A stretch of DNA of 7,066 bases, taken from the IMG/VR virus record IMGVR_UViG_2531839098_000010; one strand, given 5' to 3'. The DNA comes from a virus (taxonomy: Duplodnaviria > Heunggongvirae > Uroviricota > Caudoviricetes). The translations under genes and the position numbers were made by a program. Positions 1-7,066 of this stretch are shown in pieces. The first letter of the stretch is position 1. The number at the start of each line of letters is the position of its first letter. Below the pieces are notes generated by a model. The model was not told where the DNA came from. It made no database searches and saw only the letters and a program-made list of their open reading frames with translations.

Positions 1-62
1 GTCATCCTGTTTACCTCTTTCTCAGGGAGTTTAGTCTCCAGGATTCCCGGGGCGGTTCAGCT
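1..62. repeat. Left copy of a perfect 62-bp inverted repeat; its partner is at 7005-7066
   Basis: Reverse complement of 1-62 is identical to 7005-7066. Identity ends at position 63 (g) versus 7004 (g), which are not complementary. The repeat lies inside the open frame that continues into tfa. Confidence 0.9.
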
Positions 63-588
63 GGCCGGAACTAATGAATTTATTGGTGAAGGTGACGCAT
101 ACATTCCGCCTCATACAGGTCTGCCAGCAAACAGTACCGATATTGCACCGCCAGATATTCCGGCTGGCTTCGTGGCTGTTTTCAACAGTAATGAGGCATC
201 GTGGCATCTCGTTGAAGATCATCGGGGTAAAACGGTTTATGACGTGGCTTCCGGCGACGCGTTATTTATTTCTGAACTCGGTCCGTTACCGGAAAATGTT
301 ACCTGGTTGTCGCCGGATGGAGAGTGTCAGAAGTGGAACGGCACATCCTGGGCGAAAGATGCAGAAGCAGAAAAACTGTTTCGGGTACGGGAGGCAGAAG
401 AAACAAAAAACAGCCTGATGCAGGTAGCCAGTGAGCATATTGCGCCACTTCAGGATGCCGTAGATTTGGATATTGCGACGGAGGAAGAGGCATCGTTACT
501 GGCTGCATGGAAGACATATCGGGTATTGTTGAATCGTGTTGATACAACAGTAGCAGCGGATGTTGAGTGGCCAGTCGCCCCACAATAA
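1..588 (+). CDS. tfa: Tail fibre assembly protein, lambda Tfa type; 5' end lies outside the window
   Basis: Frame 1 is open from base 1 to TAA at 586-588. Residues from [31 protein letters not shown] to the C-terminal [15 protein letters not shown]...EWP motif closely resemble lambda Tfa as I recall it. There is no in-frame start before the conserved region (first ATG at 172 would cut it), so the start must be upstream of the window. Confidence 0.85.
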
Positions 589-594
589 AAAGAA

Positions 595-624
595 AAAGCC
601 ATCGACAGAAATATCGATGGCTTT
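595..624. terminator. Bidirectional intrinsic terminator between convergent tfa and acetyltransferase genes
   Basis: Stem 595-605 (aaagccatcga) pairs with 614-624 (tcgatggcttt) around an 8-nt loop. On the minus strand it is followed by a T-rich tract (tttttcttttta). It sits 6 nt after the tfa stop and 7 nt after the acetyltransferase stop. Confidence 0.6.
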
Positions 625-631
625 ATGTACT

Positions 632-1204
632 CTATTTATACAATACAACACCACTCTTTTTAGTTATATATGTGCAGTTTGATGGTATATCTTTATTTAT
701 AAAAGACATTGCACCTATTTTTACATTATCCCCAATTTTACGTGATAATCCAATGATGCAACAATTAGCTCCGATATCAACGTTACTACCAATTTTTACT
801 CTTGAACTAGGCATATCACCATCTATCTGTCCAATGGTAGTATTCTGTCGTAATACCAGATTTTCACCCGCATCAACAGCAAAATGAACAACAATTCCAG
901 CATGATGGGGAATTGTCAACCCTTTTCCAATATTTGCGCCCAATCCTATTTCACAACCAAACTTGTTAATTATTTTACTGTTTAACTTTTTGGCTGCTTT
1001 CTTATGTAATTTATTACCATTAATATACATTTCGTTAGCCAACCGCCACCAGAAAAGGAAATTCCGGTTACGCTGCTTTTTCTCTCTTAAAAGCCTCCAG
1101 ATATCCATACGTTTCCGCCGAATTACTTCATGTTTCCAGAAGTTTTTTAAATTAGTAGAGTTTCCAAATAAAACAAAGTGAATTGCCATTAAGTAAGATA
1201 GCAC
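632..1204 (-). CDS. Hexapeptide-repeat acetyltransferase, WcaB / serine O-acetyltransferase (CysE) family; AT-rich cargo gene
   Basis: The track ORF is 632..1237. The probable start is GTG at 1204-1202, preceded by an AAGGAG ribosome-binding site 6 nt upstream. The C-terminal half has tandem hexapeptide motifs (GCEIGLGANIGKGLTIPHHAGIVVH..., IGSNVDIGANCCIIG, IGDNVKIGAMSFI) typical of left-handed beta-helix acyltransferases. GC content by eye is about one third, against mid-50s in the flanking tail genes. Confidence 0.75.
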   Translation of the reverse strand: MLSYLMAIHFVLFGNSTNLKNFWKHEVIRRKRMDIWRLLREKKQRNRNFLFWWRLANEMYINGNKLHKKAAKKLNSKIINKFGCEIGLGANIGKGLTIPHHAGIVVHFAVDAGENLVLRQNTTIGQIDGDMPSSRVKIGSNVDIGANCCIIGLSRKIGDNVKIGAMSFINKDIPSNCTYITKKSGVVLYK

Positions 1205-1255
1205 GATAATCTCCTTAATTATTATTTCAGACCACACATGTTATAAGGTTAAGAG

Positions 1256-1284
1256 ATTATAAAATCCTGTTATTTGTTATTCAA
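1256..1284 (-). promoter_or_regulatory. Putative sigma70 promoter for the acetyltransferase gene
   Basis: Minus strand reads TTGAAT (-35, 1284-1279), a 17-nt spacer, then TATAAT (-10, 1261-1256). This lies about 50 nt upstream of the GTG start, with an A/T-rich tract upstream of the -35. Confidence 0.5.
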
Positions 1285-1317
1285 AAACAATTTTCTGAGA
1301 AGGACATACAACAGCAA

Positions 1318-1350
1318 GTCGCCAGTCACCTTCATCAGGAAATTGGCGAC
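1318..1350 (-). terminator. Possible weak terminator hairpin after tail gene U
   Basis: GTCGCCA (1318-1324) pairs with TGGCGAC (1344-1350), a 7-bp GC-rich stem with a large loop, about 10 nt after the U stop. The following minus-strand tract is only moderately U-rich. Confidence 0.3.
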
Positions 1351-1360
1351 ATACGTTAAA

Positions 1361-1855
1361 TCAGAGCAGCCCCTTAACTGAGCTGGCCGCGCTATTAAGG
1401 GATGATGTCACCTTATCTTTGAAGCCGGACAGCATATCGCTGAACGATGAGGATTGCAGGCGCTCCCGCAAATCCTCATCACAGCGTTCAAGAGTCAGTG
1501 AAAATTCTATCTTTTTCGCCTTACCGTAGCGATCAAACTCGGAGCGGGTCGTATTCGTTCCGGTCAGGACATACATGCCGTAAATCTGCCCGACGCCATC
1601 AATCAAAGGCCAAGGACGTCCTGTATATGCCTGCGTGGTCAACAACGACAGCGACACTTCGCCACCAGTAATCTCAGGATAAAGAACACCAGAAAGAACG
1701 ATGCGATCATCACCTGCACCGATATACTGCCAGCTTGCTGAACGGTTAACGCGTTCATTTTTCACATGTCGCCAGCTTTTGTTTTGCTGTAACTGCTGAT
1801 GCGGCAACGTGCGCAGCTCAAAAACAAACATGCCGTAGATCATCATCATGGCCAT
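1361..1855 (-). CDS. U: Phage tail protein U (P2 gpU family)
   Basis: The 164-aa ORF directly follows the tape-measure stop. Its N-terminal MAMMMIYGMFVFELRT...SWRH and EITGG motifs are as I recall for P2 gpU-like proteins. A GGAG ribosome-binding site overlaps the T stop, so the true start is probably ATG at 1849 rather than 1855. Confidence 0.85.
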   Translation of the reverse strand: MAMMMIYGMFVFELRTLPHQQLQQNKSWRHVKNERVNRSASWQYIGAGDDRIVLSGVLYPEITGGEVSLSLLTTQAYTGRPWPLIDGVGQIYGMYVLTGTNTTRSEFDRYGKAKKIEFSLTLERCDEDLRERLQSSSFSDMLSGFKDKVTSSLNSAASSVKGLL

Positions 1856-1861
1856 GACTCC

Positions 1862-2698
1862 TCAATCTTTATCGTAAAAACTGCCACGCCTGGCACGGGC
1901 GCGCCGTTCCATTTCTGCCCTGACCATTTCGCCGACCAGTTTCGCCAGTTCGCGGGGATTCTGCGTAACAACGTTATGCAGATGAACATGAATTTCACCG
2001 CCAAATCCGGAGGCAACAGGCTCCCGGTTACGGGAAGTTGCAGGAACTGATGCCACTGGCGATCGTATGGCCTCCACCACCGGGCGGGAGCTGGCCGCAA
2101 CAACAGGGACCAGCGCCGGAGGCAGCGGAGCCGGGACCACGGGTGTGATATTAATTGCGGGGGCAGGCTTACTGACCTGCGCAATCTTCCGCTCCTGCCA
2201 CTCCCCACGAACAGCAAGTGCGCGGGGCAGGTTCTTAAAGACAATATCGCCGGGGCCAATGCGTTTTTTTGTCTCATCAACCAGCTTACCTGTGTTATCA
2301 GCAATTTTGCTGAGTCTGCGTAGCGTGCCGGTATTGCTGTCTGTGAGAGGTTTGTTGTCTTTGGGTTTATCATCTCCGGTGCCATTGCTATTTCCCGCAG
2401 ACTTCGGCGGATTGATTTTCGCAATGTCTCCCTGAAACAGAGCAACCTTGTCCTGAAGAATGGCCGCACGTTGTGCGTCTTCGATTTTCTTGCGCGCCCT
2501 TTCCGCTTCATCCGGAAGCACACCGAGTTTTTCAAGTATCCACGCCAGCGTATCCAGCAACATTTTTGCAGGCGTCAGAACAAGCTGTAACGCACCACCA
2601 AGAACGTTACCGAATACCTCGCCAGCACTGGTACATTTATCCAGCGTTTCCTTGCTGGACTCCATCGGTGACAGCAGCGATTTAAACCAGTTAAACAC
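1862..2698 (-). CDS. T: Tail tape-measure protein T, C-terminal portion, in a frame shifted by one relative to the N-terminal portion
   Basis: The 278-aa frame is contiguous in sense with the upstream tape-measure frame. It has tape-measure-like low-complexity and Pro/Ala-rich composition and ends immediately before U. It has an in-frame stop just upstream (2723-2725), so it cannot start independently except at a GTG. Confidence 0.75.
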   Translation of the reverse strand: MFNWFKSLLSPMESSKETLDKCTSAGEVFGNVLGGALQLVLTPAKMLLDTLAWILEKLGVLPDEAERARKKIEDAQRAAILQDKVALFQGDIAKINPPKSAGNSNGTGDDKPKDNKPLTDSNTGTLRRLSKIADNTGKLVDETKKRIGPGDIVFKNLPRALAVRGEWQERKIAQVSKPAPAINITPVVPAPLPPALVPVVAASSRPVVEAIRSPVASVPATSRNREPVASGFGGEIHVHLHNVVTQNPRELAKLVGEMVRAEMERRARARRGSFYDKD

Positions 2699-4701
2699 CT
2701 GGCTGAACCGCTTCCGATTACGTCAAAAACAGGGCCAAACCGTTCAAAGGTGTCGCGCAACGGGGTCAGCCTTTCCATAATCCCGCTGAACACCCCGGCA
2801 AAGAAAGCCCTGATAGGATCCCAGTATTTCCAGATAAGAACGGCAGCTCCGGCAAGCGCAGCCACGATAAGACCAACCGGACTGAACAACGCCCCGATAA
2901 CGCCTCCCAGTAAAGAAACGGAACCCGTCACCATTCCCCATAGCGCAGGTAACACCCTGACGACATTCATTGACCGGGTAAGAATGTCAAAACCAAGACG
3001 CAGGGTGGCCAGCTTCCCGTAAAGCACCCCAATAACCAGCGACAACGAGCCAATCGTTGCAGTCATTGCCAGCAACGCACCGCCTGCTATCAGTAGCTGG
3101 CGCGTCAGTACCGGATGGGCCTGCGCCAGCGAGGTGATTTTTTCAAGCACCCGCGTGAGCCACTGCGTGACAGAACGCAGCGGACCGTCAACCAGATCAC
3201 TGATGCGAATACGAAGACCTTCCCATGCGCTGTCGAGATTTTTCAGGTCCCCATCAAGATTATCAGCCATTACTTTTGCGACGCGATCGGCCTCTCCCCT
3301 TGCCCCCTGCAATTCTCTGGTCAGTTTTTGCAGCTCTCCTGAACCAGCCGCCGCAACAAGCGTCTGCAAACCAACGAACGCCTCTTCTCCGGCGATGTCC
3401 TTGAAGAAGGAGACCTGGTCCACCTGTCCGTATTTTTGTGTCGCCTTATAGAGATCAAGCAGCACATCCTCCATCGGGCGCATTTTGCCTCTGGCGTCAG
3501 CAACTGACACCCCCAGCTCTTTCAGTGCATCAGCCGCAGCTTTTGGCGGTGATGCAAGGCGGGACAGACTTGCGCGCATGGCCGTGCCAGCATCGCTTCC
3601 GCGAAGACCATTATTGGCAAGCATCCCGGCCATGGCCGCCGCTTCTTCAAGACTGATACCAAGTTTTGCGGCAACCGGACCGGTATACTTCATGGTTTCG
3701 CCCAGCGCGCGTAAATCAGTATTGGTCCGGGTAAATGCTGCTGTCAGCGTATCGCCCACCCGGTCCATTTGATCGGCTGTCAGGTTGAACTGTGTGAGGA
3801 TATTGGAGCCTATATCAGCCGTCTCGCCGAGTTCGACGCCACCTGCCAGCGCCATATTAAGAACACCGGGCAATGCGGCCTGAATGGCCTGCGGAGTAAA
3901 ACCAGCCATTGCCAGAAAGCTCTGCCCACTGGCGGCATCACTCGCAGTAAACTGTGTTTCAGCAAGTTTTAACGCCTGCTCACGCAGCGCCTTAAACTGC
4001 GGGCTGTTTTTGTCGATTCGCGTCAGTGCCTGAACGCGGGACATCTCTTTGCCGAACCCGATCGCAGGCTGCAAAAAACGCCCGGCAGCATAGCCGCCCG
4101 CCGCTGCCGCACCAATTGCCAGCGCACCACCTGTTTTCAGTTTTCCCGCGGTTTCCTGCGCGTGCGAATACCGCTCACGCGCCTGCGTTACACGCGCAAG
4201 CGCCTGCCGTTCGCGTTCAAGCTGGTTGTTGTATTGTTCGGTGCGTCTGATGGCCTGCTGAATGGTGTTATCGCTGCCTGTCAGGGAAATGCCGTGGCGT
4301 TTCAGCTCTCCGCCAAGTTCCCTCATTTTCTGAATTTCCCGTGTGCGCGATTCATTCAGGCGTTCAAGCCGGGTGCTTAACTGCTGCATCAGCTTTTGTT
4401 GTTTTTCGCTGAGCACTGTACCCGTGCGTTGTAACTGATTAAGGGCGTTAAGCTGGCGTCGTGCTTTCACGATGCCAGCATCCGCTTTACTGACAGCGTC
4501 GCGGGCGCGCTCAAATGATCGCGCCTGACGCTCGAGATTTTTGATCGCCCCCTGCGTTCGCTGGATGGAGTCACCAAACTGCCCCATCAGGCGGCGTGCG
4601 TTTTCGGCAGGTCGGGTCAGCCTGTCAACGGCGCTGAAAGCGACCCGGATATCAAGAGTCTTCATTGTCTGCATTCCCGCTGCGAAGTGCCGCCCGCTCA
4701 C
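2575..4701 (-). CDS. T: Tail tape-measure protein T, N-terminal portion; the last ~44 codons before the stop at 2575 are out of frame
   Basis: Long ORF between E' and U with coiled-coil-like, Ala/Leu/Arg/Gln-rich sequence followed by hydrophobic segments. The track start at 4701 is GTG; a more likely start is ATG at 4674 or 4665, overlapping the end of E'. Sequence after ...FDVIGSG (about 2707) looks like out-of-frame read-through (Cys/Arg/Trp-rich). Confidence 0.85.
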   Translation of the reverse strand: MSGRHFAAGMQTMKTLDIRVAFSAVDRLTRPAENARRLMGQFGDSIQRTQGAIKNLERQARSFERARDAVSKADAGIVKARRQLNALNQLQRTGTVLSEKQQKLMQQLSTRLERLNESRTREIQKMRELGGELKRHGISLTGSDNTIQQAIRRTEQYNNQLERERQALARVTQARERYSHAQETAGKLKTGGALAIGAAAAGGYAAGRFLQPAIGFGKEMSRVQALTRIDKNSPQFKALREQALKLAETQFTASDAASGQSFLAMAGFTPQAIQAALPGVLNMALAGGVELGETADIGSNILTQFNLTADQMDRVGDTLTAAFTRTNTDLRALGETMKYTGPVAAKLGISLEEAAAMAGMLANNGLRGSDAGTAMRASLSRLASPPKAAADALKELGVSVADARGKMRPMEDVLLDLYKATQKYGQVDQVSFFKDIAGEEAFVGLQTLVAAAGSGELQKLTRELQGARGEADRVAKVMADNLDGDLKNLDSAWEGLRIRISDLVDGPLRSVTQWLTRVLEKITSLAQAHPVLTRQLLIAGGALLAMTATIGSLSLVIGVLYGKLATLRLGFDILTRSMNVVRVLPALWGMVTGSVSLLGGVIGALFSPVGLIVAALAGAAVLIWKYWDPIRAFFAGVFSGIMERLTPLRDTFERFGPVFDVIGSGSARCLTGLNRCCHRWSPARKRWINVPVLARYSVTFLVVRYSLF

Positions 4702-5181
4702 GCCAGCTAACCACTTCGCCGGGCGTCATCATGAAGATTTCGGCGGGCGACCAGTTAAAAATAACGGCAATATCTGCCACAAAGTCTTCTATGTGCTCAA
4801 AGCACACAACCGTGATCAGGCTTCCGTCGCCTGTTCGTTCTTCCCGCCAGAGTCCGCACCGCTCAAAAAATTTACGGCAACCACACATAACTGAATAAAG
4901 TCACGGGATGCCATTTTTTTGATCGTCACTTCATCCAGTCGCGGTGATGTCACGCGTGACAGCAGCGTAAACATGGATTCCGCTTTCAGATTCAGCACAT
5001 CAGACAGCGACAAATCTCGCAGAGATCCAGCCTGCTCAATAGCCCCGGTGATCTCCACATACGTGATTTTTTCGCCGCCTCGCTCAATTGGTTGGGTAAG
5101 TTTTACACCACGCTCACTGGTTTCTTTCACAGTGTCAGTAACTACCGTGTTTTCGGTATCGATGTTTTTCGTCTCTTTCAT
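4652..5181 (-). CDS. E+E': E+E' fusion chaperone produced by programmed -1 translational frameshift
   Basis: A -1 frame opens exactly at the slippery site (FFERCGLWREER...NADNEDS) and ends at TGA 4654-4652, overlapping the start of T. This is the arrangement described for the P2 tail operon. Confidence 0.7.
4816..5181 (-). CDS. E: Tail assembly chaperone E (P2 gpE family)
   Basis: The 121-aa ORF sits between the tube gene and tape measure, with an AAGGAG-like ribosome-binding site 7 nt upstream of ATG 5181. It contains the slippery heptamer near its 3' end. The position and frameshift architecture match the P2 E/E' and lambda G/GT pattern. Confidence 0.8.
   Translation of the reverse strand: MKETKNIDTENTVVTDTVKETSERGVKLTQPIERGGEKITYVEITGAIEQAGSLRDLSLSDVLNLKAESMFTLLSRVTSPRLDEVTIKKMASRDFIQLCVVAVNFLSGADSGGKNEQATEA
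4864..4870 (-). other. Slippery heptamer T TTT TTG for the E to E' -1 frameshift
   Basis: Minus strand reads aaT TTT TTG with codons aat|ttt|ttg in the E frame, the X XXY YYZ pattern. The -1 frame from ttt ttt gag is open for a further ~70 codons. Confidence 0.7.
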
Positions 5182-5203
5182 CAGGAAACTCCTTTCAGTC
5201 AGA

Positions 5204-5222
5204 GGCGACGCACTGCGCCGCC
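5204..5222 (-). other. GC-rich RNA hairpin in the FII-E intergenic region
   Basis: In the minus-strand transcript, GGCGGCGC pairs with GCGUCGCC (8 bp including one G-U pair) around a 3-nt loop. There is no U-tract after it, so it is not a canonical terminator. Confidence 0.35.
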
Positions 5223-5235
5223 TGCATATTACTTA

Positions 5236-5748
5236 TCAGCCAAGCCCAAGCGCGGAACGGATGCGATCGGGCACAATGTCCTTGCCGTCCTTCCGGTAAA
5301 TGAAGTTCAGCAGGTCAATCTCCCACAACGGGCGATCGTTAACACTCAGCTTGTAGTAGGTGTTTTTAATGGCGTAAGTGTGTGATGTGGCTTCTCCCTG
5401 TTTGGCTTCCCCCATATCAATTTCCGTCACACGTCCGCGCATTTCGACTTCATACAGGTCGCTTTCATCATCGGTGTAGTATTCCCCCGCAAAACGCAGT
5501 AGCGTGCCGTCAATCGTGCCGCCATACTTCAGGAACAGCTCACGAACTGCGCCCCCCATGACAAAGCTCGCATCAAGCGCGGAGTCGTCCAGGCCGAGGT
5601 CAATACTTACCGCACCCATCATGCCACCACCCCGGTAGCTGTCGGTTTTGCGCGTCAGTTTAGGCAGGGTGACGGACGTCACCTTACCCACTTCGTTTTC
5701 ACCATCCACAAACAGCGTAAAAAAGCGAAGATGTTTTGGTACAGCCAT
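5236..5748 (-). CDS. FII: Tail tube protein FII (P2 gpFII family)
   Basis: The 170-aa ORF has motifs SVTLPKLTRK, YRGGGM, DLGLDD and EMRGR as I recall for P2 FII-like tube proteins. Its ATG overlaps the FI stop by 1 nt (TGATG), with a GGGAGGTG ribosome-binding site upstream. Confidence 0.9.
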   Translation of the reverse strand: MAVPKHLRFFTLFVDGENEVGKVTSVTLPKLTRKTDSYRGGGMMGAVSIDLGLDDSALDASFVMGGAVRELFLKYGGTIDGTLLRFAGEYYTDDESDLYEVEMRGRVTEIDMGEAKQGEATSHTYAIKNTYYKLSVNDRPLWEIDLLNFIYRKDGKDIVPDRIRSALGLG

Positions 5749-6932
5749 CAGGCACCTCCCAGCACCGCAAATGCGGGACCAAAGAATTCATCAGTAAACG
5801 ACTGGTAAAGCTCCATGTCTTCCAGCGGAGGAACGGGCGTATATTTGTAGCGAATACGCACACGCCCCTGACGTAAATTCGTGGTGCTGTTATCCTCGAT
5901 GTCATACCAGCACTCCGCGCCAATCAGTTTCCCGGCAGTAACCAGTGAATCCAGTTTTGCCCTGATGGCACTGATAACATCCTTCACGTTCGCAGGTGTC
6001 AGTGGACTGTCGATGGTTTCAAACTGCGCTTCCGCAATTGAATCAGCCAGCACCTGTGCGGTTCGGGTATACACCTCAAAGATGTAGGCGTTCGTTTCCG
6101 GTGTGCGGTTGCCCCAGAAGCGGAACCCGTTGCGACGAATAATGGTCGTGATTTCTTTGTTGTTGAGGCTGTTGGCATCACTGTCTTCGGCCTGCAACGA
6201 CCAGAACACATGCCTCGACATCCCAAGCACATTTTTAACCGGAACGTTGGACAGCGATTTGTGCCAGCCCTGCTCATGGTCAATGTACGCACGAAGGCCG
6301 CACGCATAAGCAGGCGCGGGGAACGTTTCGTTTTTGCCACTTTTCAGGTTGTAGGCGATGAAGTCAGGCCATAAGAGCATCACCTCACGTTCGTTGAATT
6401 TCTGGCGGTAGGTAATCGCCTCAGCCATCGTGTTACAACCATGACATGTGGCATACACAAACGCGCGCAGTTTACCCGCAATCACGCACAGGGATTTTGT
6501 TACCGCCTCCGTGTCCAGCTCCGGCGCGGCCAGAATACGCGGACGGTATCCGATGCTTTCATCCTGCTCTGCAACAAGCAGCGCATACATCCCCGTATAG
6601 CTGCCGTCAGATTCAGAACCACCGATAACCAGTTGATCCTGCGTCTTACCGCCTTCTTCTTTGTGTTCAGCCACGCGAACGACGATCACTTTTGTGCTCA
6701 CCTGGTCTGCGATAGCCTTAAGCGCACGATAAAGCGTCCCCGTAGTCCCGCATTTTCCCAGCACGTCATTGACGCGGGTCAGCAGTGTGGGCTTGTTCAG
6801 CGGGAACAGCTCCGCGTCCGCATCATCTGCCGTTGCCACGATACCGATAACACTGGAATCAACATCATTAATCGCTGTTACCAGGTCGGTACTTTCCGTA
6901 ACACGGGCACCATGAAAACGAGTTTCACTCAT
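5748..6932 (-). CDS. FI: Contractile tail sheath protein FI (P2 gpFI family)
   Basis: The 394-aa ORF has motifs FPLNKP, KLRAF, WPDF, EQGWHKSLSNV, RRNGFRFWGNRT, YTRTAQV and YTPVPPLE characteristic of P2-type sheath proteins. Gene order FI-FII-E-T-U matches P2. Confidence 0.9.
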   Translation of the reverse strand: MSETRFHGARVTESTDLVTAINDVDSSVIGIVATADDADAELFPLNKPTLLTRVNDVLGKCGTTGTLYRALKAIADQVSTKVIVVRVAEHKEEGGKTQDQLVIGGSESDGSYTGMYALLVAEQDESIGYRPRILAAPELDTEAVTKSLCVIAGKLRAFVYATCHGCNTMAEAITYRQKFNEREVMLLWPDFIAYNLKSGKNETFPAPAYACGLRAYIDHEQGWHKSLSNVPVKNVLGMSRHVFWSLQAEDSDANSLNNKEITTIIRRNGFRFWGNRTPETNAYIFEVYTRTAQVLADSIAEAQFETIDSPLTPANVKDVISAIRAKLDSLVTAGKLIGAECWYDIEDNSTTNLRQGRVRIRYKYTPVPPLEDMELYQSFTDEFFGPAFAVLGGA

Positions 6933-6994
6933 AGCTTCAGCCCCTTGTATCCGTTAAATGATTCGGCAACAATCATCACCCACCACGCGCGTAA

Positions 6995-7066
6995 TCACCG
7001 TAAGAGCTGAACCGCCCCGGGAATCCTGGAGACTAAACTCCCTGAGAAAGAGGTAAACAGGATGAC
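6995..7066 (-). other. 3' end of a minus-strand reading frame entering from outside the window; ends three codons after the right inverted repeat
   Basis: On the minus strand the inverted repeat encodes the same peptide as at the left end (...[20 protein letters not shown]), but here it continues LLR and stops at TGA 6997-6995, 62 nt upstream of the FI start. It is either the C-terminus of an upstream gene or a truncated copy of the tfa 5' end. Confidence 0.35.
7005..7066. repeat. Right copy of the perfect 62-bp inverted repeat
   Basis: Exact reverse complement of 1-62. Confidence 0.9.

What the first reader, a model, noticed from the sequence alone, without database searches (positions are those of the whole stretch)
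1..7066. Perfect 62-bp inverted repeats bound the entire tail module
Positions 1-62 and 7005-7066 are exact reverse complements and sit at the very ends of the window. The left copy is in-frame coding sequence feeding into tfa; the right copy sits 72 nt upstream of FI on the other strand. Recombination between the copies would flip the whole 6.9-kb block (tfa, acetyltransferase, U, T, E, FII, FI), swapping which flanking sequence is fused to the tfa C-terminal domain and which lies upstream of the FI operon. This resembles tail-fibre inversion switches (Mu G, P1 C, e14 P, Fels-2), but the segment is unusually large and contains structural tail genes rather than only fibre genes. No invertase is inside the window. 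An alternative is technical: 62 = k-1 for k=63, so the window may be a complete assembly-graph edge whose ends both join a longer inverted-repeat node; the true repeat would then be longer and the orientation unresolved.
Basis: partly seen in the sequence, partly recalled or inferred. Interest (0 to 1): 0.65.

Follow-up and report, generated by a model that had tools for sequence, protein, structure and literature searches.

The report
IS629 ends at contig edges
The 62-base inverted repeat is the first 59 bases of two oppositely oriented copies of the common insertion sequence IS629 that flank a dead P2-like prophage tail-gene block in E. coli O157:H7, trimmed to 62 bases by a k=63 assembler; it is not a tail-fibre inversion switch, and it is ordinary.

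Summary
The repeat is real: 1-62 and 7005-7066 are perfect reverse complements. It is not an inversion site. Each arm is 3 flanking bases plus the first 59 bases of the left end of IS629/IS1203 (IS3 family), up to the orfA ATG. The window is 100% identical to eight closed E. coli O157:H7 genomes. There it lies between two full 1310-bp IS629 copies in inverted orientation, of two subtypes 95.7% identical. A k=63 de Bruijn unitig simulated on that locus returns exactly window 1-7066; no other k tested does. The block is the tail end of prophage Sp13, a defective P88-like (Xuanwuvirus) remnant. Intact relatives and IS-free ancestral O157 strains have the same order: tfa forward, then acetyltransferase, U, T, E, FII, FI on the reverse strand. 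The observed orientation is therefore native. Two chimeric-junction searches found the flipped arrangement in 0 of 5426 complete genomes. No invertase lies within 12 kb. The tail-fibre gene H is absent, tfa lacks 18 codons and T is frameshifted. IS629 sites in Sp13 are published. Verdict: already known, low interest.

The parts
1..59 (-). First 59 nt (IRL through the orfA start codon; ATG = complement of 3-5) of the left-flanking IS629/IS1203 copy, whose body lies outside the window to the left
   Evidence: Identical to IS positions 1-59 of both flanking copies in O157:H7 strain 9234. RefSeq annotates 'IS3-like element IS1203 family transposase, programmed frameshift' here. The 62-mer hits about 38 places in that chromosome, all under IS3-family transposase features.
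60..62 (+). GCT, native tfa sequence (part of codons 17-18, ..CTG CTG..) abutting the IS end; extends the inverted repeat by 3 nt
   Evidence: The intact tfa of strain 493/89 reads ...AATCTGCTGGCCGGA....
63..588 (+). 5'-truncated tail fibre assembly gene tfa (lacks its first 18 codons; no native start)
   Evidence: Pfam Caudo_TAP, E 7e-40. Compared with the full-length 192-aa tfa of 493/89. Annotated with three different artificial starts in different genomes.
632..1204 (-). AT-rich hexapeptide-repeat (serine O-acetyltransferase-like) accessory ('moron') gene
   Evidence: Annotation. Weak Hexapep Pfam hit, below the curated cut-off. GC 33-36% against about 50-60% around it. It occupies the slot where phage P88 carries its invertase and alternate fibre segment.
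1361..1849 (-). Tail gene U
   Evidence: Pfam Phage_P2_GpU, E 1.5e-38; annotation.
1862..4665 (-). Tape measure gene T, a pseudogene (1-nt deletion near 2706/2707; 3-nt in-frame deletion at 3963)
   Evidence: Annotated 'frameshifted'. Pfam PhageMin_Tail. Alignment to the intact T of 493/89.
4652..5181 (-). Tail chaperone genes E (4816-5181) and E' (GpE family, 4652-4807)
   Evidence: Annotation.
5236..5748 (-). Tail tube gene FII
   Evidence: Pfam Phage_tube, E 1.3e-47.
5748..6932 (-). Tail sheath gene FI
   Evidence: Pfam Phage_sheath_1, Gp18_domIII_N and Phage_sheath_1C.
6933..6996 (.). Native FI/D divergent intergenic sequence, cut short after ...GCGCGTAATC
   Evidence: Colinear with 493/89, Sakai, TUM10008 and P88 up to GTAATC, then diverges.
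6997..7007 (+). ACCGTAAGAGC, an 11-nt remnant of the interior of another IS629 copy (IS positions about 1105-1115); its last 3 nt (AGC) extend the inverted repeat
   Evidence: The 12-mer CACCGTAAGAGC occurs at position 1104 of both IS subtypes. GTAAT microhomology lies at the junction with native DNA.
7008..7066 (+). First 59 nt (IRL through orfA ATG at 7062-7064) of the right-flanking IS629 copy, whose body lies outside the window to the right
   Evidence: annotation 'IS3 family transposase, programmed frameshift'.

Best explanation
The window is a k=63 de Bruijn-graph unitig or contig from a short-read assembly of an E. coli O157:H7 strain of the 9234/2159/NE92 type. It covers the unique DNA between two full-length IS629/IS1203 (IS3 family) copies in inverted orientation with their left ends facing inward. 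Because IS629 is multi-copy, the assembler stops k-1 = 62 nt past the point where the two junctions become identical. That point is 3 flanking bases plus 59 IS bases, which produces a 'perfect 62-bp terminal inverted repeat'. The enclosed DNA is the surviving tail end of prophage Sp13, a defective P88-like (Xuanwuvirus, P2 relative) prophage. IS629-associated deletions removed the head, lysis, baseplate and fibre genes plus 18 codons of tfa on the left, and the D-gene fragment and IS30 remnant still present in other O157:H7 strains on the right. The gene order (tfa forward; acetyltransferase, U, T, E, FII, FI reverse) is native to this phage family. No programmed inversion is involved. Shown: IS identity, flanking structure, the k=63 reproduction, ancestral orientation, and absence of the flipped form. 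Inferred: the mechanism of the deletions (transposase/IEE-type microhomology joining), and that the source was a k=63 assembly.
For: The window is 100% identical in one piece to eight closed O157:H7 genomes. In strain 9234 it is flanked by IS1203-family transposase genes on opposite strands. The two copies are 1310 bp and align over 1313 nt (3 of them flank) at 95.7%, with 25-nt terminal IRs. The IS starts at window 7008 and ends at window 59. A unitig simulated on L001 gives exactly 1-7066 for k=63; k=21-61 give shorter unitigs and k=65-77 longer ones. The 62-mer occurs about 38 times in that chromosome and in 3486 of 5426 genomes. Sakai annotates the locus as 'prophage Sp13, P2-like phage' with a partial IS1203 at the same tfa junction. 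Intact relatives TUM10008 and phage P88, and IS-free ancestral O157 493/89, have the same order and orientation. Window 57-6996 aligns to 493/89 at 99.885%. The flipped junction occurs in 0 of 5426 genomes, against 264 for the observed junction. Rump et al. 2011 (PMC3271280) list two IS629 sites in Sp13 and describe IS629 sub-types about 4-5% apart, with O157:H7 carrying types I and III. IS629-adjacent deletions and IEE microhomology joining are described in PMC9943667.
Against: I cannot see the source assembly or its graph, so 'k=63 contig' rests on the exact numerical fit. Neither IS copy has the 3-bp target duplication expected of a simple insertion (ACA/GCT and AGC/ATA), so extra events (deletions) must be assumed. 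The repeat extends 3 nt beyond the IS ends, which I read as coincidence (1 in 64). The IS subtypes at the two positions are swapped relative to other O157 strains, and I cannot fully explain this.
Confidence: 0.95

Rival explanations
1. A programmed site-specific inversion switch of the Gin/Cin/Pin/Hin kind flips the 6.9-kb block, swapping what is fused to tfa and what lies upstream of FI.
For: A perfect inverted repeat bounds a block that begins inside a tail fibre assembly gene. The related phage P88 does carry a real invertase and an invertible fibre segment next to U.
Against: The arms are IS629 termini. No invertase lies in the window or within 12 kb either side in the closed genome. No gix/hix-like core occurs in the window (the only two hits at up to 2 mismatches lie inside T). 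There is no H gene and no second fibre/tfa set. tfa and T are pseudogenes. The flipped form occurs in 0 of 5426 genomes. The orientation equals that of IS-free ancestors.
Confidence: 0.01
2. Unprogrammed RecA-dependent homologous recombination between the two inverted IS629 copies occasionally flips the block, so that minor flipped subpopulations or lineages exist.
For: 1.3-kb inverted repeats are a substrate for such inversions, and repeat-mediated inversions are documented in O157 (PMC7430833). The IS subtypes at the two positions are exchanged between lineages, which shows that some IS-level exchange happened here.
Against: The copies are only 95.7% identical, with a longest identical run of 125 bp. 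From general knowledge of mismatch-repair anti-recombination, this should depress recombination strongly. No flipped genome was found among 5426. The subtype swap would need crossovers in the last 13 bp of the IS to be explained by two inversions.
Confidence: 0.1
3. The two IS629 copies and the enclosed block form a composite transposon that moved here as a unit.
For: The block is bracketed by two inverted copies of one IS family, as in Tn5 or Tn10.
Against: The block sits at its ancestral position within the prophage, colinear with IS-free 493/89 on the inside of both junctions. The outer flanks (ACA, ATA) are not a target duplication. Sakai has the same block with only one IS.
Confidence: 0.01

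Closest known systems
IS629 / IS1203 (IS3 family) of enterohaemorrhagic E. coli
   Same: The repeat arms are identical to the first 59 nt of the element. The complete flanking copies are 1310 bp, with TGAACCGCCCCGGG... terminal repeats and orfA/orfB joined by a programmed frameshift. One copy matches the IS1203-type and the other a 4.3%-diverged type, in line with the published IS629 sub-types that differ by about 4-5% (PMC3271280).
   Different: Neither copy here keeps a 3-bp target duplication. The right copy abuts an 11-nt remnant of another IS629.
Prophage Sp13 of E. coli O157:H7 Sakai (P2-like remnant next to leuZ)
   Same: Same integrase, same chromosomal site, same tfa-acetyltransferase-U-T-E-FII-FI block, same IS629 junction inside tfa, and same frameshifted T.
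   Different: Sakai has only the left IS629 (partial, 1057 bp, the other subtype) and keeps a D-gene fragment and IS30 on the right. The window's strain type has a second IS629 72 nt upstream of FI.
Escherichia phage P88 (Xuanwuvirus, Peduoviridae)
   Same: The U-T-E-FII-FI block is 94% identical and has the same reverse orientation relative to H-tfa, with D diverging from FI.
   Different: Between tfa and U, P88 carries a second tfa, an alternate fibre C-terminus and a DNA invertase (a true invertible fibre segment). The window has an AT-rich acetyltransferase gene there and no invertase.
Tail-fibre inversion systems Mu G/Gin, P1 C/Cin, e14 P/Pin
   Same: Only the superficial picture: an inverted repeat next to a tfa gene.
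   Different: Those systems have a serine invertase, short crossover sites of about 26 bp inside the fibre gene, and two alternative fibre-end/tfa sets in segments of a few kb (from general knowledge). None of these is present here.
Repeat-collapsed contig ends in de Bruijn-graph assemblies
   Same: Both ends carry k-1 bases of a multi-copy repeat, and the simulated k=63 unitig equals the window.
   Different: Nothing differs; this is the standard behaviour.

Membership tests
IS629/IS1203 (IS3 family) | Terminal sequence identical to the element's left end (IRL through the orfA start) | tested here: met
   Window 7008-7066 and the complement of 1-59 equal positions 1-59 of both full copies in L001 and of the Sakai copy annotated IS629/IS1203.
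IS629/IS1203 (IS3 family) | Element of about 1.3 kb with imperfect terminal inverted repeats and orfA-orfB joined by a programmed -1 frameshift | tested here: met
   Seen in the closed genome outside the window: 1310 bp, 25-nt terminal IR at 92%, CDS flagged 'programmed frameshift' with a pseudoknot feature.
IS629/IS1203 (IS3 family) | 3-bp target-site duplication flanking each insertion | tested here: not met
   Flanks are ACA/GCT and AGC/ATA. This describes the insertion history, not the identity of the element. A control copy in O145 RM9872 shows AGC/AGC. Adjacent deletions explain the loss.
Serine-invertase tail-fibre switch (Gin/Cin/Pin/Hin) | Invertase gene adjacent to the invertible segment | tested here: not met
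   None in the window or within 12 kb either side in strain 9234. Relative P88 has one.
Serine-invertase tail-fibre switch (Gin/Cin/Pin/Hin) | Short crossover sites with the AAACC-NN-GGTTT-type core inside the repeat arms | tested here: not met
   A pattern scan with up to 2 mismatches found nothing in the arms. The arms are IS629 ends.
Serine-invertase tail-fibre switch (Gin/Cin/Pin/Hin) | Two alternative fibre C-termini and tfa genes in opposite orientation inside the segment | tested here: not met
   There is one truncated tfa, no H gene and no second set.
Serine-invertase tail-fibre switch (Gin/Cin/Pin/Hin) | Both orientations present among isolates or within a population | tested here: not met
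   Flipped junction in 0 of 5426 complete genomes, observed junction in 264. Heterogeneity within a culture is not testable with these tools.
Xuanwuvirus (P88-like) prophage / Sp13 | Colinear, highly similar tail operon with FI-U transcribed opposite to H-tfa | tested here: met
   81% of the window at 91-97% identity to Xuanwuvirus-type phages. The order is confirmed in P88, TUM10008 and 493/89. Sakai carries the Sp13 annotation.
Composite transposon | The unit is found in a new context flanked by a target duplication | tested here: not met
   The block is in its ancestral prophage position and the outer flanks differ.
de Bruijn unitig end (assembly artefact) | Terminal overlap into the repeat equals k-1 | tested here: met
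   The k=63 simulation on L001 returns 12001-19066, which is window 1-7066; the other k values do not. The actual assembler settings are not available.

The most novel reading that the evidence does not exclude
The two IS629 positions carry swapped subtypes in the window's lineage. The IS1203-type sits at tfa and the diverged type upstream of FI, the reverse of strains such as FDAARGOS_293 and 06-3462, yet the tfa junction is identical to the nucleotide. This could record either past recombination between the two inverted copies (the block having flipped and flipped back) or replacement of a resident IS by another copy inserting exactly at its end. Either would make this locus a natural record of IS-IS interaction in O157:H7.
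Probability: 0.12. Interest if true: 0.25.

Novelty: already known. Interest (0 to 1): 0.07.

Why it matters
It matters mainly as a caution. Perfect inverted repeats of length k-1 at both ends of a contig mark a unique segment bracketed by inverted copies of a collapsed repeat. They are not evidence of a DNA switch. Biologically it is one more example of IS629 eroding a prophage in E. coli O157:H7, which is already used for strain typing. It has no bearing on phage host-range switching, because the prophage lacks head, baseplate and fibre genes and has a broken tape measure gene.

Tried and rejected
(1) I searched for a nested 'IS629 interior to IS629 left end' junction in complete genomes, to trace the 11-nt remnant at 6997-7007. 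All 25 listed hits were two separate IS pieces joined by the tool. No one-piece junction was listed, but only 25 of 257 records were shown. (2) I looked up the edge ORF (window 1-588) by exact product, to find the source contig. Nothing is on record. (3) Ooka et al. 2009 (PMC2765283) is not held. (4) I tested a double-inversion model for the IS subtype swap. I rejected it because both copies keep their own alleles up to position 1297 of 1310, which would force a crossover into the last 13 bp. (5) I tested simple homologous inversion against the flanking triplets. The expected reverse-complement relation between outer and inner flanks is absent. (6) I rejected the composite-transposon reading on synteny and flanks. 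(7) A scan for a gix/hix-like core found nothing relevant. (8) The exact 62-mer, with its AGC flank, also occurs in unrelated contexts: a katP-bearing plasmid and the O145 chromosome, the latter with a proper AGC/AGC duplication. So the AGC flank recurs and is not special to this locus.
Full report
OBSERVATION. The repeat exists as described. Arms 1-62 and 7005-7066 are 62 nt, 100% complementary and 6942 nt apart. The next inner bases do not pair. The gene content is also as described. A tail fibre assembly gene lies on the plus strand (Caudo_TAP, E 7e-40). On the minus strand lie a hexapeptide acetyltransferase, U (Phage_P2_GpU), the tape measure gene T, E/E', the tube gene FII and the sheath gene FI. 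FI starts at 6932, 72 nt from the right arm.

WHAT THE ARMS ARE. The 62-mer matches 22,329 places in 3486 of 5426 complete E. coli genomes, about 38 of them in one O157:H7 chromosome. In every listed hit it lies under an 'IS3 family transposase' feature.

The whole window is 100% identical, in one piece, to eight closed O157:H7 genomes: strains 9234, 2159, 2149, 1130, Gim1-1, NE92, NCCP 13918 and 4276. In strain 9234 (L001, window = 12001-19066) it lies between two IS1203-family transposase genes on opposite strands. Aligning the flanks shows two 1310-bp elements, 95.7% identical (56 mismatches), with 25-nt terminal inverted repeats and their left ends facing the window.

The IS proper starts at window 7008 (TGAACCGCCCCGGG...) and runs to the orfA ATG at 7062-7064. 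The mirror image occupies 1-59. Each arm is therefore 59 nt of IS629/IS1203 left end plus 3 flanking nt. On the left those 3 nt (GCT) are native tfa sequence. On the right (AGC) they are the end of an 11-nt remnant, ACCGTAAGAGC, of the interior of another IS629 copy, positions about 1105-1115. That these triplets are complementary looks coincidental. The exact 62-mer, AGC included, also occurs in unrelated contexts, and one of those copies carries a proper AGC/AGC target duplication.

WHY 62. In the closed genome the perfect repeat is 71 nt and the imperfect one 1313 nt, so 62 is not a genomic boundary. I simulated de Bruijn unitigs on L001. For k=63 the unitig through the middle of the block is 12001-19066, which is exactly window 1-7066. 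Values k=21 to 61 give shorter unitigs, and k=65 to 77 give longer ones. The contig stops k-1 bases past the point where the two junction sequences become identical. I could not see the source assembly. A look-up of the edge ORF found nothing.

WHAT THE BLOCK IS. Sakai annotates the locus as 'prophage Sp13, P2-like phage'. It has the same tfa-acetyltransferase-U-T-E-FII-FI block and a partial IS1203 at the same tfa junction, but no right-hand IS629.

The closest phages are Xuanwuvirus-type members of the Peduoviridae: 500465-2 (96.8%), P88 (94%) and others. In P88 the order is H, tfa, then an inverted tfa'/H' pair and a DNA invertase. Next come U, T, E, FII and FI on the opposite strand, and then D on the forward strand. 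An intact prophage in E. coli TUM10008 has H, tfa, an LbetaH acetyltransferase (reverse), U-T-E-FII-FI (reverse), then D and ogr (forward).

The early-branching O157 strains 493/89 and LSU61 carry the same prophage, with the same integrase and the same site next to leuZ. In them it still has its head, lysis and baseplate genes and H, and there is no IS629 in the region examined. Window 57-6996 aligns to 493/89 at 99.885%, in the same orientation relative to both flanks. The arrangement 'tfa forward, tail operon reverse' is therefore native to this phage family and ancestral in O157. It is not the product of an inversion.

In the window's lineage, about 17 kb (head to fibre genes plus tfa codons 1-18) has been replaced by the left IS629. 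On the right, the D fragment and IS30 remnant that other O157:H7 strains retain have been lost beside the right IS629. Other O157 strains have the right IS at about 211 bp or about 530 bp from FI instead of 72. Neither IS keeps a target duplication. The native/remnant junction shows GTAAT microhomology. These features fit the IS629-adjacent deletions and IEE microhomology-mediated joining described for O157 (PMC9943667). That mechanism is inferred here, not shown.

DOES IT FLIP? I built chimeric queries that join the ParM-side flank to the reverse complement of the FI end, which is the junction a flipped block would create. No genome of 5426 contains it. The first query was 2.4 kb and the second 4 kb, with a join tolerance of about 2.5 kb. 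The control query for the observed junction is present in 264 genomes.

No serine invertase lies within 12 kb either side. The only recombinases there are the IS transposases and the prophage integrase 11 kb away. No gix/hix-type core occurs in the window. The remnant could not build a tail fibre anyway. H is absent, tfa lacks its start and 18 codons, and T is frameshifted by a 1-nt deletion near 2706/2707.

RecA-dependent inversion between the two IS copies is possible in principle. However, they are 4.3% diverged and their longest identical run is 125 bp. Any such event would be rare and unprogrammed.

COMPARISON WITH KNOWN SYSTEMS. The arms belong to IS629/IS1203; the membership features were tested and met, except for the lost target duplications. 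The block belongs to Sp13, a P88-like prophage. The structure fails every defining feature of the Gin/Cin/Pin/Hin switches and of a composite transposon. Rump et al. 2011 (PMC3271280) list two IS629 sites in Sp13, one widespread and one in EC4115/TW14359. They also describe IS629 sub-types that differ by about 4-5%, with O157:H7 carrying sub-types I (IS1203-like) and III. This is in line with the two types seen here.

LOOSE END. In strain 9234 the tfa-side IS is the IS1203 type and full length, and the FI-side IS is the diverged type. In Sakai, FDAARGOS_293 and 06-3462 the tfa-side IS is the diverged type. There it is truncated at 1057 bp and is 100% identical to the 9234 right copy. Where a right copy exists, it is the IS1203 type. 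The tfa junction is identical in all. Two successive inversions would need a crossover in the last 13 bp of the IS, so I do not favour that model. I leave this unexplained.

VERDICT. The feature is an IS629-bounded contig of a known defective prophage: already known, low interest.

Noticed in passing
window 6997-7007: An 11-nt fragment (ACCGTAAGAGC) identical to IS629 positions about 1105-1115 lies between the native FI-upstream sequence and the left end of the right IS629. GTAAT microhomology marks the native junction. This suggests that the right IS once sat inside another IS629 copy, which was later almost wholly deleted by microhomology-mediated joining.
   Followed up: partly
L001 10750-12059 and 19008-20317, versus L002, L003 and L007: The IS629 subtypes at the two Sp13 positions are swapped between lineages. 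In the 9234 type the order is IS1203-type (left) and diverged type (right). In other O157 strains it is a truncated diverged type (left) and IS1203-type (right). All share a nucleotide-identical junction with tfa. No simple recombination model fits.
   Followed up: partly
window 1862-4665 (minus strand): The tape measure gene T is a pseudogene. It has a 1-nt deletion near 2706/2707 and a 3-nt in-frame deletion at 3963 relative to the intact gene of strain 493/89. The same frameshift annotation appears in Sakai and other O157:H7 strains.
   Followed up: yes
window 632-1204 (minus strand), AT-rich region about 600-1350: A hexapeptide-repeat (serine O-acetyltransferase-like) gene at 33-36% GC occupies the slot between tfa and U, where phage P88 has its invertase and alternate fibre segment. 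The tfa-acetyltransferase pair is also found at 91-93% identity in unrelated large phages (JL22, vB_EcoM-Ro157c2YLVW), so it appears to travel as a cassette.
   Followed up: no
window 1-588: The truncated tfa is annotated with three different starts in different RefSeq genomes: window 43 (codon ATT), window 61 (codon CTG) and window 172 (codon GTG). The reading frame stays open into the antisense IS end back to window -29 without any canonical start codon.
   Followed up: yes
L010 2779-3681 (strain 493/89, outside the window): In the intact ancestral prophage a macro domain-containing protein gene sits between the tail fibre gene H and tfa. This is an unusual passenger at that position.
   Followed up: no
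L005, L006 and L010 (relatives): In P88-like (Xuanwuvirus) phages the FI-FII-E-T-U operon is transcribed opposite to H-tfa and diverges from D-ogr. From memory, P2 itself has FI to D in one co-oriented operon. This is a family-level rearrangement that separates U from D.
   Followed up: partly
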